Below, one piece after another: positions 5,968 to 16,842 of a stretch of 64,000 nt of DNA (position 1 is the stretch's first letter; the number at the start of each line of letters is the position of its first letter). A program made the translations under genes and the position numbers. The notes below the pieces were generated by a model. It did no database searches and was not told the origin of the DNA. It saw only the letters and a list, made by a program, of their open reading frames with translations. Source of the DNA: Candidatus Nomurabacteria bacterium (GTDB lineage Bacteria; Patescibacteriota; Minisyncoccia; Phycocordibacterales; JACOZG01); the NCBI GenBank assembly GCA_020847275.1, contig JADLCI010000001.1, positions 2,540 to 66,539 on the forward strand, read 5' to 3'.

Positions 5968-7201
5968 ATTGCTCTAGAACTGTTGGCAATTTAACCTTGC
6001 CATCAGCTTGCTGATAATTTTCCACCAAAGCGGCGATAATTCGTGGTGTTGCCATCGCCGTACAGTTGAGCGAGTGAGCAAAGTGAATCTTGCCATCGGT
6101 TCCACGATAGCGAATATTGAAACGTCTTGTCTGGAAATCGTGATAATAGGACGCACTAGACCCCTCGCGATAAGTTTTCTGACTTGGAAACCAGATCTCC
6201 GTGTCATACTGTTTTACCTTACTCAGTCCAAGATCACCGCCACAAATAAGAAGCCTTCGATAAGGCAACCCGAGTGACTCTAGAAATTCCTCATAATTAC
6301 GATTTAGCTCTTCGTGTATCCGGGCTGACTCAGTGTGATCAGCTTTGCATAAGATGAGTTGCTCTAGTTTAAAAAACTCATGGACCCGAATTAGACCCTT
6401 CACGTCCTTACCGTGACTCCCGGCCTCACGACGATAACACGGTGAGAAAGCAAGATAACGCTTCGGTAAATCTAACTCATCTAAAATTTCATCCCCATGA
6501 TAAGCCATCATGGGTACTTCGGCTGTCCCAGAGAGATAATCATCGTCCTGGGTCTTAAACAAATCTTCAGACTCTCTTGGAAGATGGCCCGTACCATAGA
6601 AATATTCTTTTTTTACAATTGCCGGAGCAATAAATGGCTGATAATCTTTCTGGCCAAAAAAAGCTCGCGCGGAGTTCCATAGCGCCCAAGAAAGTTCGGC
6701 CCCATCTCCACAAAGAAAGTAGCCCCGAAATCCGTGAACTTTTGTCCCCCTCTCGAAATCAACCCAGCCCAAATTCTGCATTAACTCAATGTGATCCTTA
6801 GGGGTGAAATCAAATTTAGGCTTCTCCCCCCAAGTGGCCACCTCCACATTCTCGCTTTCATCTTTCCCGTCTGGAACCGAAACATCTGGAACATTCGGCA
6901 CCTGAAGCATCAGTCTCTGCCAATCGATCACAATCTCCTTCAGATCCGCTTCGTCTGTTTTGAGCTTAGTCTTTAAATCACGTAACTTGGTTAGAATCTC
7001 TGCTTGACCAGAAATATCTGTCTTCGCCACCTCTTCTCCCAGTTTATTCTGTTCAGCCCGCTTAGACTCTACCTCCGCCAACAACTTCAAGCGTTTCTCG
7101 TCTAAGACCAACAATTCTTCCACATTAAAGTCCAGGTGCTTTTTCATCACCGCGCTTTTGACTAATTCCGCATTCTCTCGAATAAACTTGATGTCCAACA
7201 T
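5942..7201 (-). CDS. serS: seryl-tRNA synthetase
   Basis: 419 aa; N-terminal coiled-coil arm (MLDIKFIRENAELV...) and class II aaRS core motifs. Confidence 0.93.
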   Translation of the reverse strand: MLDIKFIRENAELVKSAVMKKHLDFNVEELLVLDEKRLKLLAEVESKRAEQNKLGEEVAKTDISGQAEILTKLRDLKTKLKTDEADLKEIVIDWQRLMLQVPNVPDVSVPDGKDESENVEVATWGEKPKFDFTPKDHIELMQNLGWVDFERGTKVHGFRGYFLCGDGAELSWALWNSARAFFGQKDYQPFIAPAIVKKEYFYGTGHLPRESEDLFKTQDDDYLSGTAEVPMMAYHGDEILDELDLPKRYLAFSPCYRREAGSHGKDVKGLIRVHEFFKLEQLILCKADHTESARIHEELNRNYEEFLESLGLPYRRLLICGGDLGLSKVKQYDTEIWFPSQKTYREGSSASYYHDFQTRRFNIRYRGTDGKIHFAHSLNCTAMATPRIIAALVENYQQADGKVKLPTVLEQYANFGSAI

Positions 7202-8787: not shown

Positions 8788-10968
8788 ATGAAATTGCTCA
8801 TTGTTGAATCGCCAGCAAAAGCGAAAACGATTTCAAAATACCTGGACGGTGAATATACCGTGCGGGCAAGTGTTGGGCATATTCGTGATTTACCAAAATC
8901 AAACAAGAATGCGATTAATATTGCAGATGGTTTCGTACCGCATTATGAAATCTCACCAGGAAAGGAGAAGGTGGTGAAAGAGTTAAAGAGTTTAGCAAAG
9001 CGGTCAGAGAAAACCTTGCTCGCAACAGACCCCGACCGCGAGGGTGAGGCAATTGCTTGGCACATTAAGGAAGCAATCGGGCTGAAGAAACCAGAACGCG
9101 TCGTTTTCCACGAAATCACAAAGGAGGCGGTACAAGAAGCCATGAAACATCCCCGCCAGATTGATGAAAATCTTCGCTCCGCCCAAGAAGCACGGCGAGT
9201 GCTGGACAGATTGTTTGGCTACGATCTTTCTGGATTGATTTGGCAGAAATTACGCTACGGCCTATCGGCCGGAAGAGTTCAATCTCCGGCCCTACGAATC
9301 CTTGTGGAACGTGAACGAGAGATTAAGGCCTTTGTTCCAGAAAAATTTTGGGTGATAGAAGCGCTCCTTACCACAAAGGATGAAACCGAAATCAAGTTCA
9401 CCTGTACGGTTGAGCCGAAAACGGGCGAAGAGGCGGCGAAAATCGTAGATCTGAGTCAGAAAAGTGATTGGCAAATAGATACCGTTAAACAAAGTGAGGC
9501 CAAGCGAACAGCCCGAGCACCATTTACCACCTCCACACTTCAACAAGCTGCTAGTTCGCGACTAGGCTATTCACCATCAATCACCATGCGGCTCGCCCAG
9601 AAACTTTACGAGGCGGGGCATATTACTTACATGAGAACGGACAGCACCAATCTGTCGCAACAGACGCTTGGTGAGATTGCCACGGTGGTGAAGGATCGGT
9701 TTGGTGATAAATATTACACTCGCCAGACCTATGCGACAAAAAGCAAGAACGCCCAGGAGGCCCACGAGGCCATCAGACCAACTCATCCCAATACCACAAA
9801 GGTTGGAAACTCCGCACAAGAAGAAAACCTATACCGTCTAATCTGGGCCCGAACAATTGCCAGCCAGATGAGCGCCGCTGAAATTCTAAAAACAGAAATT
9901 ATTGCCCGGCCACAAAATCCAGAAATTCCTGACTTCAAGACCACGGGTTCGGTAATCACTTTTGCCGGTTGGTTGGAAGCTGACCCAGATGCCCGTGGTG
10001 AAGATCTGGAATTACCAGAAATCGAGAGTGGAGAAAAACTAAGATTGAAAAATATCGAGTCGCTTGGCAAAGAGACCCAGCCACCAAGACGATATTCCGA
10101 AGCTGGTTTGGTAAAAGAATTGGAAAAGCGTGGCATTGGTCGACCGTCAACCTATGCCCCAACGATTAAAACAATCATCGATCGTGGCTATGTTGAGAAG
10201 GAAGCCCGAAGCTTAAAGCCGACAGAAACCGGAGAAGTTGTAAGCACTTTCCTGGAACAATATTTTGCGTCCTATATTAGTGATGACTTCACTCGCGAGA
10301 TGGAGGACAATCTCGACCAAATTGCCAGCGGCGAGCGTGAGTATGTAAAGACGTTAAAGGACTTCTATGGCCCCTTCAAGAAAGCGGTGGCTGAGAAAAA
10401 AGACATTCCCAAGATTACAAACCTTGGTGCTGCCCCAGAAGAGACGCGGTGTCCCCTTTGTGTCGGACCAATGATTATCAAACTGGGTCGCTCGGGCAAG
10501 TTTTATTCCTGTGCCAAATTTCCCGACTGTACTGGCGCCCGCAAACTTACTGGTGAAGAAATGTCGGGACCAAAGGAGACTGGTGAATCATGCCCGGAAT
10601 GTAAGGACGGGAAGCTGGTAGAACGAGACGGAAAATTTGGCAAATTCATCGCCTGTGCCAACTATCCGAAATGTAAGTTTATAAAAAAAGACCCCGAACA
10701 GGAGGCGAAAAACGACACCGGAATCCAGTGTCCGAAATGTAAAAAGGGAACAATGGGAGAACGGCGTGGGCGCTTCGGCATCTTCTATGGCTGTTCCAAT
10801 TATCCGGCCTGTAAAAATATCATCAAAACCAAACCAACTGGTAAACTCTGTGATATTTGTGGCGCCCTGATGATGACCGGGACCAAAACCATCCCTGATC
10901 GTTGTTCAGACAAAACCTGCGTTAATCACAATCCACACAAAGTTGAGAAGGCTAGCACGAAGAAGTAG
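8788..10968 (+). CDS. topA: DNA topoisomerase I with C-terminal C4 zinc ribbons
   Basis: 726 aa; Toprim domain (MKLLIVESPAKAKTI), the active-site region, and four CxxC...CxxC zinc-ribbon repeats at the C-terminus. The dprA-topA adjacency is conserved. Confidence 0.95.
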   Translation: MKLLIVESPAKAKTISKYLDGEYTVRASVGHIRDLPKSNKNAINIADGFVPHYEISPGKEKVVKELKSLAKRSEKTLLATDPDREGEAIAWHIKEAIGLKKPERVVFHEITKEAVQEAMKHPRQIDENLRSAQEARRVLDRLFGYDLSGLIWQKLRYGLSAGRVQSPALRILVEREREIKAFVPEKFWVIEALLTTKDETEIKFTCTVEPKTGEEAAKIVDLSQKSDWQIDTVKQSEAKRTARAPFTTSTLQQAASSRLGYSPSITMRLAQKLYEAGHITYMRTDSTNLSQQTLGEIATVVKDRFGDKYYTRQTYATKSKNAQEAHEAIRPTHPNTTKVGNSAQEENLYRLIWARTIASQMSAAEILKTEIIARPQNPEIPDFKTTGSVITFAGWLEADPDARGEDLELPEIESGEKLRLKNIESLGKETQPPRRYSEAGLVKELEKRGIGRPSTYAPTIKTIIDRGYVEKEARSLKPTETGEVVSTFLEQYFASYISDDFTREMEDNLDQIASGEREYVKTLKDFYGPFKKAVAEKKDIPKITNLGAAPEETRCPLCVGPMIIKLGRSGKFYSCAKFPDCTGARKLTGEEMSGPKETGESCPECKDGKLVERDGKFGKFIACANYPKCKFIKKDPEQEAKNDTGIQCPKCKKGTMGERRGRFGIFYGCSNYPACKNIIKTKPTGKLCDICGALMMTGTKTIPDRCSDKTCVNHNPHKVEKASTKK

Positions 10969-11975: not shown

Positions 11976-12058
11976 GCCGGAGTGGCGGAATGGCATACGC
12001 ATACGACTCAAAATCGTACGGCCGCAAGGCCTTGTGGGTTCAAGTCCCACCTCCGGCA
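11976..12058 (+). tRNA. tRNA-Leu (anticodon CAA)
   Basis: Cloverleaf with acceptor GCCGGAG/CTCCGGC, anticodon loop CTCAAAA, long variable arm and a GTGGG-TTCAAGT-CCCAC T-arm. Confidence 0.85.
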
Positions 12059-12065
12059 CATCGTT

Positions 12066-12137
12066 GTCCCCGTAGTCTAATGGATAGAACACGGGCCTCC
12101 GAAGCTCGAGATACAGGTTCGATTCCTGTCGGGGACA
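12066..12137 (+). tRNA. tRNA-Arg (anticodon CCG)
   Basis: Acceptor GTCCCCG/CGGGGAC, anticodon loop CTCCGAA, T-arm ACAGG-TTCGATT-CCTGT; 72 nt. Confidence 0.8.
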
Positions 12138-12172
12138 CCGCGCTGAAACAAAAGAGATTCTCGATTCCGTTT

Positions 12173-12201
12173 TTGACTTGACATAATAGACCAGATATGC
12201 T
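12173..12201 (+). promoter_or_regulatory. candidate sigma70 promoter (TTGACT-17-TATGCT) for the high-GC gene
   Basis: Hexamers at 12173-12178 and 12196-12201 with a 17-nt spacer, about 190 nt upstream of the start codon. Confidence 0.4.
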
Positions 12202-12394
12202 AGCCTCTGTTCATAATTTGGGGTGGTGAATTACCCTTCAAATTACGGTAGCTCTTTGATAAGACGGGAGGAAAAATCGAGAATTCTCCATCTAAGCAGT
12301 GAGTAGCGCATTGGACACCTAAATTAGGTATCTAGTGCACTACTCATTGTGGGTAGGCGAAATCAAACAAACTCAAACCAAAAGGAGAATTATC

Positions 12395-13051
12395 ATGAAA
12401 GTCCTAGTTTTCGACGACAACGAGACCCATCGCGCCGCCGCTCATGCCCAACTCAAAGACCACGACCTCACGGTCGTCGGTACCTACGACGAGGCACAGA
12501 AGCTGCTCACGCCACAGTTCGACTACGAGAAGGCCTCGGCCACTCTCAAGGGTCAGTTCGGCGACTTCAACCCCTATCGTTCCGACGATGAGGCGAAGAA
12601 GGCCGAATACTTTGCGGCCGAGAAGGTGGCGAACGAGCAGGCGACGACCTACCCCAACTTCGATGTTGTTCTGTCCGACCTCCTCGTGCCCGCTTCGCGG
12701 CAGGCGCAGGGTTCGATGGAACTCGTCGGCAAGGAGATGCCCGTCGGCATCTTCATCGGGCTACTGGCCGCGGTCAAAGCTCGTGCGAAGTATGTCGCCG
12801 TCTTCACGGATAGCGACCATCACTCGCATCCTGCCTCCGCCTGCTTCGACACCTTCAACGATGGCGAGACTGCCCCCACGCCGTTCATGATCGAGGGCAG
12901 CAAGGTCCTCCTCTCCAACACGAGGAACTGGGTTAACAAGTACGATCCGCAGGACCTCTCGAGGGCGCTGGGGTACGAGGAGTACAGCAAGCGGTCCGAC
13001 ACGGTCCGCGCCAAGAACTGGTCTGCGCTCCTCTCATACCTCACCGCCTAA
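12395..13051 (+). CDS. receiver (REC/CheY)-like domain protein, horizontally acquired (high GC, GC3-rich)
   Basis: 218 aa from the ATG at 12395, preceded by AAAGGAGAAT. MKVLVFDDNE...FDVVLSDLLVP resembles the receiver beta1/beta3 acidic pocket. GC is about 62% with GC3 about 80%, against about 46% in flanking genes. It has its own promoter and terminator. Confidence 0.6.
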   Translation: MKVLVFDDNETHRAAAHAQLKDHDLTVVGTYDEAQKLLTPQFDYEKASATLKGQFGDFNPYRSDDEAKKAEYFAAEKVANEQATTYPNFDVVLSDLLVPASRQAQGSMELVGKEMPVGIFIGLLAAVKARAKYVAVFTDSDHHSHPASACFDTFNDGETAPTPFMIEGSKVLLSNTRNWVNKYDPQDLSRALGYEEYSKRSDTVRAKNWSALLSYLTA

Positions 13052-13071
13052 CCCGCCTCCCACCAACCCAA

Positions 13072-13109
13072 CGCGCCATGTCTTCGGACCTCTGGCGCGT
13101 TTTCTTTTT
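13072..13109 (+). terminator. intrinsic terminator
   Basis: CGCGCCA-(14 nt)-TGGCGCG hairpin followed by TTTTCTTTTT. Confidence 0.7.
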
Positions 13110-13205
13110 CATAATTCAAAGAACAAAGGATTTGCCGCTAAGACTGAAGTCCGTTAGAATCTCAGTAAATCCGAATTCTGCCAAAGAGAAAACTGAAATC
13201 GTCAC

Positions 13206-14121
13206 ATGAGCAAGCAAGTCTTAGTAATTGTCGGCCCCACAGCCAGTGGTAAAAGTGCCTTGGCGGTTCAGCTGGCCAAGAAGTTTGATGGTGAAATTAT
13301 TTCGGCAGATTCAAGACAGGTTTATCGTGGCTTAGATATCGGGAGCGGAAAGATTACCGAGAAAGAGAAGCGTGGTATTCCCCACCACCTCCTAGACATC
13401 GCTTCACCCAAACGCATCTTTACTGTGGCGCGATATCAAAAATTAGCAAAACAAAAGATCGCCGAGATCATTGGTCGAGGAAAGTTACCAATCATCTGTG
13501 GCGGCACAGGCTTCTATATCCAAGCGATTGTCGACGACCTGGCTTTACCGAAAGTGAAACCGGATTCTCGTCTCCGGAAAAGTCTCGCCCAGAAAACTGT
13601 GCCCGAATTATTTAAAATGCTTCAGAAACTAGACAGCAACCGGGCGAGAAAAATTGACAGAAATAATCCCCGGCGACTAATCCGCGCGATAGAGATTGCC
13701 AAACATGGGCCAAAAAAGTGACTACCAGTTTATTATAATCGGCCTCAATCCCGGGCCCGAAAAGTTGAAACGGCTAATCAGAGTCCGGCTAGAAAAACGC
13801 CTAAAAAATGGACTAATTGATGAGGTCAGAGACTTGAGAAGGGGCGGCTTGAGCTGGCGAAGATTGGAAAGTCTTGGTCTGGAATATAGGTTCGTCTCTC
13901 TTTACTTGCAGAAAAAACCAGACAGAAAAGAGCTGGTGGAGAAATTGAATATCGCCATCTGGCATTATGCTAAGCGACAAATGACTTGGTGGAAACGCGA
14001 CGAGCGAATACAGTGGCTAGAACAAAAATCAGCGTTGAAGTTAAAGCTGAAACCAAACAGTACTGACACCAAGAACCTATTACAAACCCCTGCAAATAGA
14101 CGAAGACAAGCGAGGCGATGA
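13206..14121 (+). pseudogene. miaA: tRNA dimethylallyltransferase split by a +1 frameshift in an A6 run (or homopolymer sequencing error)
   Basis: ORF 13206-13721 carries the P-loop GPTASGKS, DSRQVYRGLDIGSGK and the RRLIRAIEI motif. ORF 13696-14121, in the +1 frame, carries the MiaA C-terminal half (QFIIIGLNP...YAKRQMTWWK). Both reading frames cover AAAAAA at 13712-13717, and deleting one A restores a continuous 300-aa MiaA. Confidence 0.8.
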
Positions 14122-15122: not shown

Positions 15123-15145
15123 ATTTTCTATATCCTAACAGATAC

Positions 15146-15217
15146 GGGCCTGTAGTTTCAATGGTAAAACATCGGTCTCCAAAACCGAGGTTCCGCGTTC
15201 GAGTCGCGGCGGGCCCG
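15146..15217 (+). tRNA. tRNA-Trp (anticodon CCA)
   Basis: Acceptor GGGCCTG/CGGGCCC, anticodon stem TCGGT/ACCGA with loop CTCCAAA, T-arm CCGCG-TTCGAGT-CGCGG. Confidence 0.85.
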
Positions 15218-15219
15218 CC

Positions 15220-15378
15220 CTATTTCTTCGCTTCCTTATGACCCGTGTGCTTGCGACACCAGCGGCAGTGCTTCTTAATCTCAATCTTGCGTTCCACCAG
15301 CTTGCGATTCTTCCGACTCCAGTAATTAACCCGTTTGCAGGTTTGGCAAGCCAGCTTGATTAGTTGATCCTGTGACAT
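15220..15378 (-). CDS. rpmG: 50S ribosomal protein L33
   Basis: 52-aa minus-strand ORF missed by the ORF track: MSQDQLIKLACQTCKRVNYWSRKNRKLVERKIEIKKHCRWCRKHTGHKEAKK, with the L33 zinc-ribbon CxxC...CxxC pattern and the conserved KHT.HKE ending. Confidence 0.8.
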   Translation of the reverse strand: MSQDQLIKLACQTCKRVNYWSRKNRKLVERKIEIKKHCRWCRKHTGHKEAKK

Positions 15379-15518: not shown

Positions 15519-16250
15519 ATGTATTTTGCTGGTGATCTGACAAAATCAAGCAAATGGGAACTTCTTCACCTAAAAGAAGTGTCCTACTGGCATCGGGCCG
15601 GCAGTGGTATCCAAGAGGTATTTAACAGAATGCGGGCGTCCGGTAAGAAGCATCTAAGTGAGATGGACACTGAAACTATCGAGGTCTGGGTCACCACCAT
15701 GCTTGCTCTGGCAATGCAGCACAGAGAGAAAAAGATTTTTTGGCTTGGAAAACCAAAAAACGATCCACCTGACATGGCAGTTATGACCGTTACGGAAACG
15801 GGTTATTTTCATGCGCGAGAAATCGAGGTCACAAGATGTATGCACCCAAACGAGAACCTGATCAAAAATATTTTGAAAAAAGACCGAGAAAATAAATTAT
15901 CAGAAAAATATATTCTATGTGGTTTTATGGAGATTCATGGTCATTACAATTTAGTCTCTATCGGCAATTACCTTCAAACTAAATTGGAGAATATTAAAAA
16001 TGTGGTCTTGGTTTTTAATGGGGGGATGATTTTTAATACAGATGAAATTGCGACAAGAAATTTGTGGACTGTGGCTCAAATATCACCAGTCTTTGACGCT
16101 ATTACTGTGAACATATCGTCCGAATACAATAACTGGTTAAACGACCCAGACAAGCTCCGTTATACAAAAAATGGCCAAATATATTTTGGTAAGAAAACAC
16201 TAGACGAGACTTATCCTACAATTTTACCTAATACTCCAATCTCTTTTTGA
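15519..16250 (+). CDS. hypothetical protein (orphan; AT-rich 3' half)
   Basis: 243 aa, no recognisable motif. GC falls to about 33% in the second half. Candidate promoter TTGAGC-17-TATATT lies just upstream. Confidence 0.5.
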   Translation: MYFAGDLTKSSKWELLHLKEVSYWHRAGSGIQEVFNRMRASGKKHLSEMDTETIEVWVTTMLALAMQHREKKIFWLGKPKNDPPDMAVMTVTETGYFHAREIEVTRCMHPNENLIKNILKKDRENKLSEKYILCGFMEIHGHYNLVSIGNYLQTKLENIKNVVLVFNGGMIFNTDEIATRNLWTVAQISPVFDAITVNISSEYNNWLNDPDKLRYTKNGQIYFGKKTLDETYPTILPNTPISF

Positions 16251-16736: not shown

Positions 16737-16758
16737 TGTGCGCCGGGCAGGATTCGAA
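16737..16758. repeat. proximal copy of the 22-bp repeat (part of intact tRNA-Tyr)
   Basis: TGTGCGCCGGGCAGGATTCGA lies within the tRNA-Tyr 3' half; see the partner at 16563-16584. Confidence 0.7.
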
Positions 16759-16821
16759 CCTGCGTAGCCCAAAGGGCGACAGATTTACAGTCTGTTGTAA
16801 TTGACCACTCTACCACCGACG
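16738..16821 (-). tRNA. tRNA-Tyr (anticodon GTA)
   Basis: On the minus strand: acceptor GCGTCGG/CCGGCGC, anticodon stem ACAGA/TCTGT with loop CTGTAAA, long variable arm, T-arm GCAGG-TTCGAAT-CCTGC. A terminator-like hairpin follows the 3' end. Confidence 0.85.
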
Positions 16822-16842
16822 CGCGACCTTACTATATATATT

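What the first reader, a model, noticed from the sequence alone, without database searches (positions are those of the whole stretch)
11976..13110. Single-gene horizontal acquisition beside tRNA-Leu/tRNA-Arg: high-GC, GC3-saturated receiver-like protein
The 218-codon gene at 12395-13051 is about 62% GC with about 80% GC3, against roughly 46% for every neighbouring gene. It lies directly downstream of two tRNA genes and has a private promoter, a 190-nt structured leader and a strong terminator. Its N-terminus (KVLVFDDNE...FDVVLSDLLVP) resembles a CheY-like receiver acidic pocket with a long insertion. The rest of the protein is unassigned. The composition points to a donor with a high-GC genome, which is of interest if this organism is an epibiont of high-GC hosts.
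Basis: partly seen in the sequence, partly recalled or inferred. Interest (0 to 1): 0.7.

Follow-up and report, generated by a model that had tools for sequence, protein, structure and literature searches.

The report
Transferred gene cassette beside tRNA-Arg
A 1.07-kb self-contained gene cassette encoding an unusual CheY-like protein was inserted right after a tRNA-Arg gene in this ultrasmall (CPR) bacterium, and the same promoter, leader and terminator "frame" carries unrelated GC-rich genes in other CPR lineages, pointing to a small, undescribed family of exchangeable cassettes.

Summary
ORF 12395-13051 (218 aa) is 60% GC with GC3 0.82, against a window mean GC3 of 0.46 (z = 5.4). It lies 255 nt after tRNA-Leu/tRNA-Arg and has a promoter-like site, a structured leader and a strong terminator.

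Horizontal acquisition is strongly supported. Four sister genomes keep TopA-ParB-tRNA-Leu-tRNA-Arg-MiaA synteny but lack the gene. Segment 12140-13205 is the insert. It is 79% nucleotide-identical, non-coding parts included, to a copy in a Berkelbacteria genome. Synonymous divergence to that copy is 0.41, while ParB and TopA are synonymously saturated even against the closest relatives.

The leader and terminator/tail also frame at least five unrelated GC3-rich ORFs elsewhere. The leader carries an anti-SD/SD helix that co-varies. Frames sit behind tRNA-Arg genes in 6 of 10 cases. No integrase lies nearby.

A non-CPR high-GC donor is not supported. Close homologues show an amelioration gradient, which suggests a GC-rich pool within CPR.

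The parts
11976..12059 (+). tRNA-Leu(CAA), part of the conserved ParB-tRNA-Leu-tRNA-Arg-MiaA backbone
   Evidence: ARAGORN and Rfam tRNA at 58 bits. The same gene sits at the same place in sister loci L034-L037.
12066..12139 (+). tRNA-Arg(CCG). Homology with the sister genomes stops at its 3' end, so this is the left junction of the insertion.
   Evidence: blastn homology to the sisters ends at 12131-12139. tRNA-Arg genes lie upstream, in the same orientation, of 6 of the 10 frames that have an upstream tRNA.
12140..13205 (+). The inserted cassette as a whole (1,066 bp), absent from the sister genomes
   Evidence: Sister L035 has 7 nt between tRNA-Arg and the miaA start codon. Window 12177-13213 matches L005 (Berkelbacteria) at 79% over 1,063 nt.
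12173..12206 (+). Sigma-70-type promoter of the cassette. In the family alignment it reads TTGACA at 12178-12183, a 17-nt spacer containing TG, and a -10 of TAGCCT in the window (TATACT in most relatives).
   Evidence: Consensus scan and conservation in 8 of 9 aligned leaders.
12215..12244 (+). Leader hairpin P1 (AATTTGGGG...CCCTTCAAATT)
   Evidence: RNAalifold consensus, with three pairs showing compensatory changes; also present in the window's minimum-energy fold.
12247..12276 (+). Conserved, predicted single-stranded leader segment (GTAGCTCTTTGATAAGACGGGAGGAAAAA)
   Evidence: Nearly invariant in alignment A6 and unpaired in the consensus fold. Possible binding site for a ligand, protein or RNA (inference).
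12279..12289 (+). Anti-Shine-Dalgarno element (GAGAATTCTCC)
   Evidence: Pairs with 12384-12394 (inverted repeat I13; centroid fold). The equivalent pairing is found in all 8 leaders tested, with co-varying sequences; duplex energies are -9.9 to -13.7 kcal/mol against -4.5 to -8.4 for shuffles.
12297..12349 (+). Leader hairpin P2, a stem of about 26 bp with a nearly invariant sequence
   Evidence: Inverted repeat I1 and RNAalifold. Its 22-nt core retrieved 11 metagenome loci.
12384..12394 (+). Shine-Dalgarno region (GGAGAATTATC), sequestered by the anti-SD element in the predicted fold
12395..13051 (+). Cargo ORF of 218 aa: an atypical single-domain receiver-fold protein with GC3 0.82
13070..13109 (+). 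Intrinsic terminator: hairpin 13070-13101 followed by a T-run at 13100-13109
   Evidence: RNAfold dG -18.1 kcal/mol. The stem shows compensatory changes between the window, L038 and L004 in the tail alignment. The module is 84-94% identical across loci whose proteins are only 38% identical.
13110..13205 (+). Conserved 3' tail with an outward-facing promoter-like site (TTGCCG-17-TAGAAT, 13132-13160) that abuts the miaA start codon. In L005 the tail continues into a pseudo tRNA-Arg 3' half; here it is truncated at ...GAAATCGTCAC|ATG.
   Evidence: nhmmer tail profile hit 13053-13213, E = 1e-48. Promoter scan. Alignments.
13206..14121 (+). miaA (tRNA isopentenyltransferase), the backbone gene at the right junction; split by a frameshift in this assembly
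   Evidence: Sister homology resumes at 13218 or later. tblastn with a sister MiaA maps residues 1-167 to frame 3 (13206-13700) and residues 183-289 to frame 1 (13720-14040).

Best explanation
Window 12140-13205 is a horizontally acquired, self-contained expression cassette inserted directly after tRNA-Arg(CCG), between that tRNA and miaA, in a Nomurabacteria-type CPR genome. From 5' to 3' it holds a sigma-70-type promoter, a leader of about 190 nt, the cargo ORF, a strong intrinsic terminator and a tail of about 100 nt. In the leader, an anti-SD element pairs with the ribosome-binding site across a long invariant hairpin, so translation is probably held off until some signal opens the helix (inferred). 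The tail carries an outward promoter-like site that now faces miaA, which in sister genomes follows the tRNA directly; this could compensate for the polarity of the inserted terminator (inferred). The cargo is an atypical stand-alone receiver-fold protein from a large, unannotated family whose named members are all from CPR lineages. It keeps the receiver acidic pocket (D7, D8, D95 followed by LLVP) and the beta4 Thr (T138). It has Asn where the beta5 Lys would be, a variable helical insertion, a beta-rich C-terminal extension and an invariant motif TDSDHHSHPASACFD. It most likely acts as a phospho- or metal-dependent switch on a partner protein (inferred; a TrmB-family regulator is its commonest neighbour in non-cassette contexts). 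The promoter/leader and terminator/tail make up a frame shared at 54-88% nucleotide identity by cassettes that carry at least five unrelated ORFs, all GC3-rich, in different CPR genomes. The cassettes preferentially lie just downstream of tRNA-Arg genes, and in some loci they are flanked by tRNA-Arg 3'-half-like repeats. They carry no recombinase, so they are probably moved in trans by site-specific integration at tRNA-Arg, and cargos can be swapped by homologous recombination within the frame (inferred). The GC3 excess marks origin in a GC-rich gene pool within CPR, followed by amelioration in the recipient.
For: Foreign composition: GC3 z = 5.4. Empty site: four sister genomes with the same DprA-TopA-ParB-tRNA-Leu-tRNA-Arg-...-MiaA-VKOR-DsbA synteny lack the gene (tblastn E > 0.1) and hold no frame remnants. 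Recent shared ancestry with copies in distant hosts: 79% nucleotide identity over 1,063 nt, non-coding parts included, to Berkelbacteria L005. dS is 0.41-0.45 for the cargo, while ParB and TopA have pS 0.81-0.89 against the closest relatives. The best ParB relative in 5.8 billion proteins is 79% identical, whereas cargo homologues reach 92%. Frame around unrelated cargos; L039 and L046 match at 89% up to the ATG and again after the stop codon but have unrelated ORFs. Leader structure and co-varying anti-SD/SD helix; the leader and tail evolve more slowly than synonymous sites. tRNA-Arg association: 6 of 10, p = 1.5e-4, including L053, which was found independently of the leader pattern. tRNA-Arg 3'-half-like repeats lie on both sides of the L005 cassette. 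Receiver fold; conserved residues. Purifying selection on the protein: dN/dS 0.12-0.30. Amelioration gradient among close homologues: GC3 0.84 to 0.54.
Against: No att-like direct repeat is detectable at the window's own junctions (p = 0.78), nor in L053. No integrase or transposase lies near any cassette, so the mobility mechanism is not shown. Four of the ten frames with an upstream tRNA lie behind other tRNAs (Lys, Leu, Gly, Val). Only about 14 frame-bearing loci were seen, most retrieved with one exact 22-mer, so cargo diversity and host range are poorly sampled. Most host contigs have no reliable taxonomy. No donor genome with matching composition was found. The leader/tail GC of 0.37-0.40 is odd for a GC-rich donor. 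Extreme codon bias lowers the saturation level of pS to about 0.64 (computed from the third-position frequencies), so the dS contrast is somewhat overstated. The protein's biochemical role is entirely inferred.
Confidence: 0.68

Rival explanations
1. Direct acquisition from a non-CPR, high-GC organism such as an actinobacterial host of the epibiont. On this view the GC3 is simply the donor's codon usage.
For: GC3 of 0.82 with C > G >> T > A at third positions resembles genes of genomes above 60% GC. CPR bacteria live on host cells (general knowledge).
Against: Of 319 homologues (E <= 1e-3) among 5.8 billion proteins, and 682 clusters in an exhaustive HMMER scan, every one that carries an organism name is from a CPR lineage. 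All 29 reference-genome loci are CPR-type MAGs; a few are auto-labelled otherwise. GC1 (0.60) and GC2 (0.39) are close to CPR values and below what a genome of about 67% GC would give (about 0.68 and 0.45; regression recalled from memory). The promoter, leader and tail that travelled with the ORF are 37-40% GC. Members of both cargo families exist at native, low-GC composition in CPR genomes (L010, L012, L013; L051).
Confidence: 0.08
2. The leader and terminator/tail are not parts of a mobile unit. They are a conserved cis-regulatory module of a regulon, placed in front of several different small genes and kept similar by selection or gene conversion. The window's gene is one regulon member that happened to be transferred.
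For: The leader has a plausible regulatory architecture (co-varying anti-SD/SD helix, invariant P2) and evolves more slowly than synonymous sites. L033 and L039 both lie upstream of ruvA in hosts whose ruvA region is only 64% identical. The cargo boundaries are ORF-precise.
Against: The 64-kb window has only one copy. Frame identity of 70-88% across hosts far exceeds the saturated divergence of housekeeping genes. The frame arrives together with the gene at a site that is empty in sister genomes. The loci share no flanking homology. Every cargo is compositionally foreign to its host.
Confidence: 0.15
3. The high GC3 is not a donor signature. It is produced on the cassettes themselves, by GC-biased gene conversion from frequent recombination, or by selection for GC-rich coding sequence (for example for mRNA stability).
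For: The GC excess is concentrated at third positions, while GC1, GC2 and the constrained non-coding frame stay host-like. All six to seven unrelated cargos share the same third-position usage. The homologue is GC-richer than its flanks in 29 of 29 loci.
Against: Close homologues (79-82% identity) in AT-rich hosts have dropped to GC3 0.54-0.55 (L052, L054), and more distant ones sit at host composition (L010, L012, L013; L051). That is the pattern expected from amelioration, not from maintained selection. A rise from 0.46 to 0.82 is far beyond the gBGC effects reported in bacteria (general knowledge).
Confidence: 0.15
4. The gene is an ancestral, vertically inherited resident that was lost in the sampled sister genomes, or the junction is an assembly or binning artefact.
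For: The four sisters could form one clade, in which case a single loss would explain the absence. MAG contigs can be chimeric.
Against: No remnants in any sister. dS to copies in other candidate phyla is unsaturated, while neighbouring genes are saturated against the closest relatives. The same cassette with the same internal junctions occurs in independent assemblies from NCBI, ENA and JGI. The frame is contiguous with a host-type tRNA and with miaA.
Confidence: 0.03

Closest known systems
Response-regulator receiver (REC, CheY-like) domains, in particular stand-alone and atypical or pseudo-receivers
   Different: Below the Pfam threshold (12.5 against 30.2 bits). A helical insertion of about 48 residues between alpha2 and beta3, absent in many homologues. 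Invariant Asn175 where the beta5 Lys is expected from the predicted secondary structure, and invariant K207 elsewhere. A beta-rich C-terminal extension. An invariant T-D-S-D-H-H-S-H-P-A-S-A-C-F-D motif in the beta4-alpha4 region. No histidine kinase in any annotated neighbourhood.
tRNA-targeted integrative islands that lack their own integrase (cis-mobilizable elements, CIME-type mini-islands)
   Same: Inserted immediately 3' of a tRNA gene. Absent from sister genomes. Foreign composition. No recombinase in cis. In L005 there is a tandem arrangement behind tRNA-Arg, with tRNA 3'-half-like direct repeats on both sides of the cassette.
   Different: Only about 1 kb with one gene. No detectable att repeat at the window's junctions. 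No candidate integrase identified anywhere. The element has a conserved regulatory leader and terminator with ORF-precise cargo exchange, which such islands do not have.
Phage morons (independent promoter-ORF-terminator units with deviant composition)
   Same: An autonomous transcription unit with its own promoter and intrinsic terminator, a single ORF and a composition unlike its surroundings.
   Different: Not in a prophage: the neighbours are TopA, ParB, tRNAs, MiaA and DsbA. No homologue in 50,697 phage records, IMG/VR contigs or BFVD structures. Morons do not share a common leader/terminator frame.
Integron gene cassettes
   Same: Small single-ORF modules. Unrelated cargos are bounded by a conserved, hairpin-forming element. 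Exchange between lineages.
   Different: These cassettes carry their own promoter and a 5' leader, whereas integron cassettes are typically promoterless. No intI, attI or array: there is one frame per locus and one in the 64-kb window. The conserved elements lie on both sides of the ORF. attC was not tested with a dedicated model.
SD-sequestering translational riboregulators (riboswitch expression platforms, RNA thermometers)
   Same: An anti-SD/SD helix that co-varies across loci, plus conserved structured and single-stranded elements upstream.
   Different: No match to any of 4,227 Rfam families, even at E <= 1. The ligand or trigger is unknown. Conservation extends at the sequence level through the promoter and linker, more than structure alone would need.

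Membership tests
Response-regulator receiver domain (REC, PF00072) | Flavodoxin-like (beta-alpha)5 fold | tested here: met
Response-regulator receiver domain (REC, PF00072) | Acidic pair at the C-terminal end of beta1 (CheY D12/D13) | tested here: met
   D7 is invariant and D8 is at least 90% conserved in 65 sequences. hhalign places them on CheY D12/D13.
Response-regulator receiver domain (REC, PF00072) | Phospho-acceptor Asp at the end of beta3 (CheY D57), followed by x-x-[ML]-P | tested here: met
   D95 is invariant, directly after predicted strand 91-95, and is followed by L-L-V-P99. Placement is by predicted secondary structure, not by superposition. Phosphorylation itself was not tested.
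Response-regulator receiver domain (REC, PF00072) | Ser/Thr at the end of beta4 (CheY T87) | tested here: met
   T138 is at least 90% conserved and lies directly after predicted strand 133-137.
Response-regulator receiver domain (REC, PF00072) | Lys at the end of beta5 (CheY K109) | tested here: inconclusive
   The residue after predicted strand 169-174 is Asn175, which is invariant in the 26-sequence alignment A1 and at least 90% conserved in the 65-sequence alignment A3, and is not Lys. K170 sits at the wrong end of the strand. K207 is invariant but lies on an extra C-terminal strand.
Response-regulator receiver domain (REC, PF00072) | Score at or above the Pfam gathering threshold | tested here: not met
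   12.5 bits against a cut-off of 30.2, residues 3-38 only. A profile of 65 homologues against PDB sequences reaches only E = 0.12.
Response-regulator receiver domain (REC, PF00072) | Cognate histidine kinase or phosphotransfer partner | tested here: not met
   No HK-type gene in any neighbourhood that has Pfam annotation, and none among the gene families shared between the 29 loci. A partner could be encoded elsewhere in the genome.
tRNA-targeted integrative element or genomic island | Insertion at the 3' side of a tRNA gene | tested here: met
   The cassette starts at the end of tRNA-Arg(CCG), with the leader profile beginning 33 nt downstream. Of the frames that have an upstream tRNA, 6 of 10 sit behind a tRNA-Arg.
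tRNA-targeted integrative element or genomic island | Presence/absence polymorphism among related genomes | tested here: met
   Absent from four syntenic sister loci; L035 has 7 nt between tRNA-Arg and miaA.
tRNA-targeted integrative element or genomic island | Flanking direct repeats (attL/attR) that contain the tRNA 3' end | tested here: not met
   In the window no repeat of the tRNA-Arg 3' end is found at the tail end (p = 0.78). L005/L045 does meet this feature (p < 0.003 on both sides). There are partial copies in L033, L044 and L004, and none in L053.
tRNA-targeted integrative element or genomic island | Integrase encoded in the element | tested here: not met
   The cassette holds a single 218-aa ORF. 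No integrase family appears among annotated neighbours.
Integron gene cassette | intI integrase with attI and an array of promoterless cassettes ending in attC | tested here: not met
   Own promoter and leader. One frame per locus and one in the 64-kb window. No integrase nearby. An attC covariance model was not available, so attC itself was not tested.
Phage moron | Located within a (pro)phage genome | tested here: not met
   Housekeeping neighbours. No protein or DNA match in phage, viral-contig or plasmid collections.
Known cis-regulatory RNA family (Rfam 15) | Match to a curated covariance model | tested here: not met
   Nothing apart from tRNAs at gathering score in 11 frame loci. Nothing credible at E <= 1 in the window cassette or in the L046 cassette.

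The most novel reading that the evidence does not exclude
CPR/Patescibacteria bacteria share a previously undescribed family of modular expression cassettes of about 1 kb with no recombinase of their own. Each has a near-consensus promoter, an SD-sequestering riboregulator leader, an interchangeable GC3-rich ORF, a conserved terminator and a tail that ends in a tRNA-Arg-like half-site. The cassettes cross candidate-phylum boundaries, land behind tRNA-Arg genes through a trans-acting recombinase, and swap cargos by recombination within the conserved frame. This would be a cassette-exchange system that works somewhat like integrons but is built differently.
Probability: 0.35. Interest if true: 0.8.

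Novelty: new variant of a known kind. Interest (0 to 1): 0.6.

Why it matters
CPR bacteria have tiny genomes, and little is known about their mobile DNA or gene regulation. This locus gives a clean, datable case of gene flow between candidate phyla, with an empty site in relatives, unsaturated synonymous divergence and co-transferred regulatory DNA. It also points to a reusable frame that delivers different small proteins behind tRNA-Arg genes. If that holds, three things become directly testable. The first is a CPR-specific structured leader with a co-varying anti-SD helix and no Rfam family, which is a candidate new riboregulator. The second is a large unannotated receiver-fold family whose named members are all from CPR lineages (about 680 clusters at 50% identity), with an invariant His-rich motif; it could be a signalling component in organisms that have few two-component systems. 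The third is a route by which epibiotic bacteria exchange accessory genes without carrying integrases in cis. If it does not hold, the finding is still a well-documented single-gene HGT event of an uncharacterised receiver-like protein.

Tried and rejected
1. Phage, plasmid or viral vehicle. tblastn against phages and plasmids, peptide-pattern and leader-pattern scans of IMG/VR, PHROGs and BFVD fold search all found nothing significant.
2. Defence-system membership. PADLOC gave no hit.
3. NCBIfam gave no hit.
4. A conserved small partner ORF between TrmB and the homologue. The upstream small ORFs are unrelated, with 19% mean identity.
5. Target-site duplication or terminal inverted repeats at the window cassette. 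None was found beyond chance-level short repeats.
6. A tRNA-like att remnant in the window tail. My by-eye similarity (TCCGAATTCTGCC against TTCGATTCCTGCC) is not significant (p = 0.78).
7. The 98-nt GC-rich module as a universal terminal inverted repeat. It is a perfect inverted repeat around the L039 and L046 cassettes but is absent from the window, L005, L004 and L047, so it is not part of the core element.
8. Alternative shared leader families among the homologue loci that lack the frame. None was found.
9. Integrase or transposase in flanking ORFs. None was found; there is only a distant Y1_Tnp in L033 and a weak Transposase_20 in L049.
10. HAD-phosphatase reading of the DD motif. Rejected because motif I (DxDxT/V) is not met: the sequence is D7-D8-N9-E10-T11.
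11. Taxonomy of distant homologues through cluster members. This was uninformative because almost none carry names.
12. The AFDB50 fold library was unavailable.
13. Literature searches found no description of this family or of such cassettes in CPR bacteria.
Full report
OBSERVATION. The ORF at 12395-13051 (+) encodes 218 aa. It has GC 0.604 and GC1/GC2/GC3 of 0.60/0.39/0.82. The 61 long ORFs of the window average GC 0.469 (sd 0.035) and GC3 0.465 (sd 0.066), and none exceeds GC3 0.60, so the gene stands out at z = 5.4 for GC3. tRNA-Leu(CAA) at 11976-12059 and tRNA-Arg(CCG) at 12066-12139 lie directly upstream. A promoter-like site lies at 12173-12201. The leader folds at -60 kcal/mol, z = -5.1 against shuffles. 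A hairpin at 13070-13101 (dG -18.1 kcal/mol) followed by a T-run forms a strong intrinsic terminator.

IS IT AN INSERTION? The window matches NCBI protein IT398_00085 of a Candidatus Nomurabacteria bacterium. I used the adjacent ParB gene to find the closest relatives in 5.8 billion proteins; the best is only 79% identical. Four sister contigs (L034-L037) keep the backbone DprA-TopA-ParB-tRNA-Leu(CAA)-tRNA-Arg(CCG)-...-MiaA-VKOR-DsbA-tRNA-Trp. None encodes the receiver-like protein (tblastn E > 0.1), and none contains leader or tail remnants. In L035 only 7 nt separate tRNA-Arg from the miaA start codon. Window homology to the sisters stops at 12131-12139 and resumes at 13218 or later. So 12140-13205 (1,066 bp) is an insert relative to these relatives. 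L036 and L037 carry other, unrelated genes at the same place, which makes the tRNA/miaA gap a hotspot.

HOW RECENT, AND FROM WHERE? The insert, non-coding parts included, matches L005 (Candidatus Berkelbacteria, which NCBI ranks as a separate candidate phylum) at 79% over 1,063 nt. It also matches L004, L033 and L053, all with unrelated flanks. Synonymous divergence of the ORF is 0.41 to L005 and 0.45 to L033, with dN/dS of 0.12-0.30. In contrast, ParB and TopA are synonymously saturated (pS 0.81-0.89) even between the window and its closest sisters. One caveat applies: the extreme codon bias lowers the ceiling for pS to about 0.64 (from the third-position frequencies), so the contrast is smaller than the raw numbers suggest, but it remains clear. 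This is the pattern of recent transfer between deeply diverged hosts.

The protein family is large: 319 hits in the word-indexed search, and 682 clusters at 50% identity in the exhaustive HMMER scan. Every organism name attached to a homologue is a CPR lineage: Nomura-, Berkel-, Taylor-, Moranii-, Azam-, Komeili-, Falkow-, Uhr-, Zambryski- and Peribacteria, plus Saccharibacteria labels. A few MAGs are auto-labelled as other phyla. No homologue appears in phage, viral-contig or plasmid collections.

COMPOSITION ACROSS THE FAMILY. In all 29 reference-genome loci the homologue is GC-richer at third positions than its neighbours, by +0.01 to +0.48. In L001, for example, the gene is 58% GC in a 33% GC contig. 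The excess sits mainly at third positions: host ORFs average GC1/GC2/GC3 of 0.52/0.37/0.46, and the GC3-rich homologues 0.61/0.40/0.77. Close homologues in AT-rich hosts are intermediate: L054 has GC3 0.54 where neighbours are about 0.2, and L052 has 0.55 where neighbours are about 0.40. More distant homologues sit at host composition (L010, L012, L013). This gradient fits entry from a GC-rich pool followed by amelioration. It does not fit selection that holds GC3 high. In the GC-richest CPR hosts sampled (L022, L017, L003) the gene is near native composition, so GC-rich CPR lineages are plausible sources. No donor with GC3 of about 0.8 was identified.

THE FRAME. Searching metagenome contigs with the 22-nt core of the leader hairpin returned 11 loci. 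In these loci the leader (window 12172-12392) and the terminator plus tail (13053-13213) recur, but the ORF between them differs. The cargos seen are:
- the same receiver-like gene (L005/L040/L045, L033, L053; 5'-deleted in L004)
- a 38-43% identical family member (L039)
- a different weakly receiver-like 259-aa protein (L038)
- a 195-aa protein (L041/L048)
- a lipoprotein-like 158-aa ORF (L043)
- a 141-aa protein (L044, L046)
- a copy in which the cargo has been deleted (L047)

Leaders are 69-88% and tails 54-83% identical in every pairing, whether the cargos are related or not; unrelated cargos are 12-22% identical at the amino-acid level. L039 and L046 match at 89% over 1,230 nt up to the start codon, have no similarity across the ORF, and match again after the stop codon. 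All cargos are GC3-rich (0.66-0.87) with the same third-position usage: C is about equal to or above G, and both are well above T and A. The frame itself is 37-40% GC. None of the non-receiver cargos has a Pfam family. The 141-aa cargo belongs to a small family that, like the receiver-like family, has both host-composition members (L051, L049) and GC-rich island members (L050). The window contains exactly one frame.

THE LEADER. RNAalifold on nine leaders gives hairpin P1, with some compensatory changes, and a long P2 whose sequence is almost invariant. The element just 5' of P2 is complementary to each locus's own Shine-Dalgarno region, and the two change together: GAGAATTCTCC/GGAGAATT in the window, AATTCTCCTT/AAGGAGAATT in L048, and AATCCTC/GAGGATT in L039 and L046. 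Duplex energies are -9.9 to -13.7 kcal/mol, against -4.5 to -8.4 for shuffled partners. The leader and tail evolve more slowly (K 0.23-0.32) than synonymous sites in the same cassettes. No Rfam family matches. I infer a translational riboregulator whose default state hides the ribosome-binding site. The trigger is unknown.

THE TAIL AND THE LANDING SITE. The tail holds a promoter-like TTGCCG-17-TAGAAT that points away from the cassette. In the window it abuts the miaA start codon, and in sisters miaA follows the tRNA directly, so an outward promoter would offset the polarity of the inserted terminator (inference). In L005 the tail ends in a pseudo tRNA-Arg 3' half, and a second copy of that tail end lies about 95 nt upstream of the leader, behind an AT-rich foreign ORF that follows a real tRNA-Arg(CCT). 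This is the layout of tandem accretion at a tRNA att site. tRNA-3'-like fragments also flank the frames in L033, L044 and L004. The window's tail stops at ...GAAATCGTCAC|ATG, and no significant tRNA-like repeat is present there (p = 0.78); L053 has none either.

Upstream tRNAs in the same orientation are Arg in the window (CCG), L033 (GCG), L005/L045 and L042 (CCT), L004 (TCT) and the independently retrieved L053 (CCT, 147 nt away). They are Lys, Leu, Gly and Val in four other loci. That is 6 of 10, with p = 1.5e-4 if 10% of tRNA genes are Arg. No integrase or transposase lies beside any cassette. My inference is site-preferential integration next to tRNA-Arg by a recombinase supplied in trans, and cargo exchange by homologous recombination in the frame. 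Neither step is shown.

- D7 and D8 after beta1, aligned to CheY D12/D13
- D95 after beta3, in the context D-L-L-V-P
- T138 after beta4

The expected Lys after beta5 is replaced by Asn175, which is invariant in the 26-sequence alignment and at least 90% conserved in the 65-sequence one; an invariant K207 lies on an extra strand. Three features are specific to the family: a variable helical insertion (about residues 40-88, absent in many homologues), a beta-rich C-terminal extension, and the motif T138-D-S-D-H-H-S-H-P-A-S-A-C-F-D152, in which H142 and D152 are invariant and most other positions are at least 90% conserved. Pfam, NCBIfam, PHROGs and PADLOC give no significant hit. A TrmB-family winged-helix regulator is the commonest neighbour, in 12 of 29 loci and usually divergent, and also in L052 and L054. 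The window has none. I take the protein to be an atypical stand-alone receiver acting as a phospho- or metal-dependent switch, possibly on a TrmB-type regulator. That is inference; only the fold and the conservation are shown.

COMPARISON AND VERDICT. The gene is a new, unannotated branch of the receiver superfamily. It fails the Pfam threshold, and the Lys criterion is unresolved. The element resembles an integrase-less tRNA-targeted mini-island (CIME-like), a phage moron and an integron cassette in different respects, but it fails a defining feature of each: no att repeat at this copy and no integrase, no prophage context, and no intI or array together with its own promoter. I rate it as a new variant of known kinds. 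The inference of a high-GC donor tied to high-GC hosts is not.

The main limits are these. Only about 14 frame-bearing loci were seen, most found with one exact 22-mer. Most hosts lack reliable taxonomy. No read-level check of the junctions was possible. No recombinase or donor genome was identified.

Noticed in passing
window 13206-14121 (break between about 13700 and 13720): miaA is split into two ORFs (13206-13721 and 13696-14121). A sister MiaA maps to frame 3 and then to frame 1, with the break at or near an AAAAAA run. This is either a real frameshift or pseudogene directly downstream of the inserted cassette, or a homopolymer assembly error.
   Followed up: partly
L036 3557-5816; L037 1604-3917 (sister genomes, same tRNA/miaA locus): The ParB-tRNA-Leu-tRNA-Arg-miaA gap is an insertion hotspot. 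L036 holds two unknown ORFs (272 and 285 aa). L037 holds a His_Phos_1 phosphatase, a 2H-phosphoesterase-like ORF, a 205-aa ORF and a small GIY-YIG gene, some of them between the two tRNAs.
   Followed up: partly
L046 988-1109 (-) and 2077-2197 (+); L039 3894-4013 (-) and 5296-5417 (+); L038 8195-8309: A 98-nt GC-rich module (ATTCGTGCGGCTCCGCC...GTATTCTGCAC) flanks the L039 and L046 cassettes as perfect inverted repeats. Both copies in a locus share the locus-specific variant. It has no Rfam match and is absent from the window. It could be a MITE-like element, an invertible-segment boundary or a small RNA gene.
   Followed up: partly
L002, L003, L008, L010-L014, L018, L025, L028, L029, L052, L054: A TrmB-family winged-helix regulator of about 250 aa lies near the receiver-like gene, usually divergently transcribed just upstream, in 12 of 29 reference loci and in two further loci. 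This may be a functional partnership. The window has no such gene.
   Followed up: partly
L004 about 6010-6020; L047 about 10130-10218: There are two decayed cassettes. L004 lost the RBS and codons 1-15 through a deletion that joins the 3' arm of P2 to codon 16 at an ACTCA microhomology. L047 lost the whole cargo, from the 3' arm of P2 to just before the terminator.
   Followed up: yes
L005 4737-5639 and 7221-7577: Between tRNA-Arg(CCT) and the cassette there is an AT-rich (33-43% GC) 300-aa ORF with no Pfam family, which is a second foreign segment at the same tRNA. Downstream lies a 23S_rRNA_IVP (Avd-like four-helix bundle) gene.
   Followed up: partly
L006 4830-5708 (-): A 292-aa protein with a weak Response_reg hit (E = 1.7e-4, residues 153-203) clusters with the receiver-like family and lies divergently upstream of the L006 homologue. 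It may be a fused or paralogous form.
   Followed up: no
L029 6503-6613; L001 1504-1553; L007 6713-6767: The roughly 50-nt terminator module after the stop codon is 84-94% identical between loci whose proteins are as little as 38% identical (L029 against the window). The 3' non-coding module is therefore far better conserved than the coding sequence it follows.
   Followed up: partly
window 15519-16250: A 243-aa ORF with low GC (0.387; the local GC dips to 0.34) lies between tRNA-Trp (15145-15220) and tRNA-Tyr (16738-16822). The sister genomes carry different genes in this interval (DUF4145 in L034; a Ser_hydrolase-type gene and a 175-aa ORF in L035). It may be a second variable, tRNA-flanked spot.
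   Followed up: no
L030/L032 6913-7170; L037 3680-3865; L050 1953-2270: Small free-standing GIY-YIG ORFs (61-105 aa) recur within 1-2 kb of GC-rich single-gene islands or at the sister hotspot. They could be unrelated, or they could be linked to local DNA mobility.
   Followed up: no
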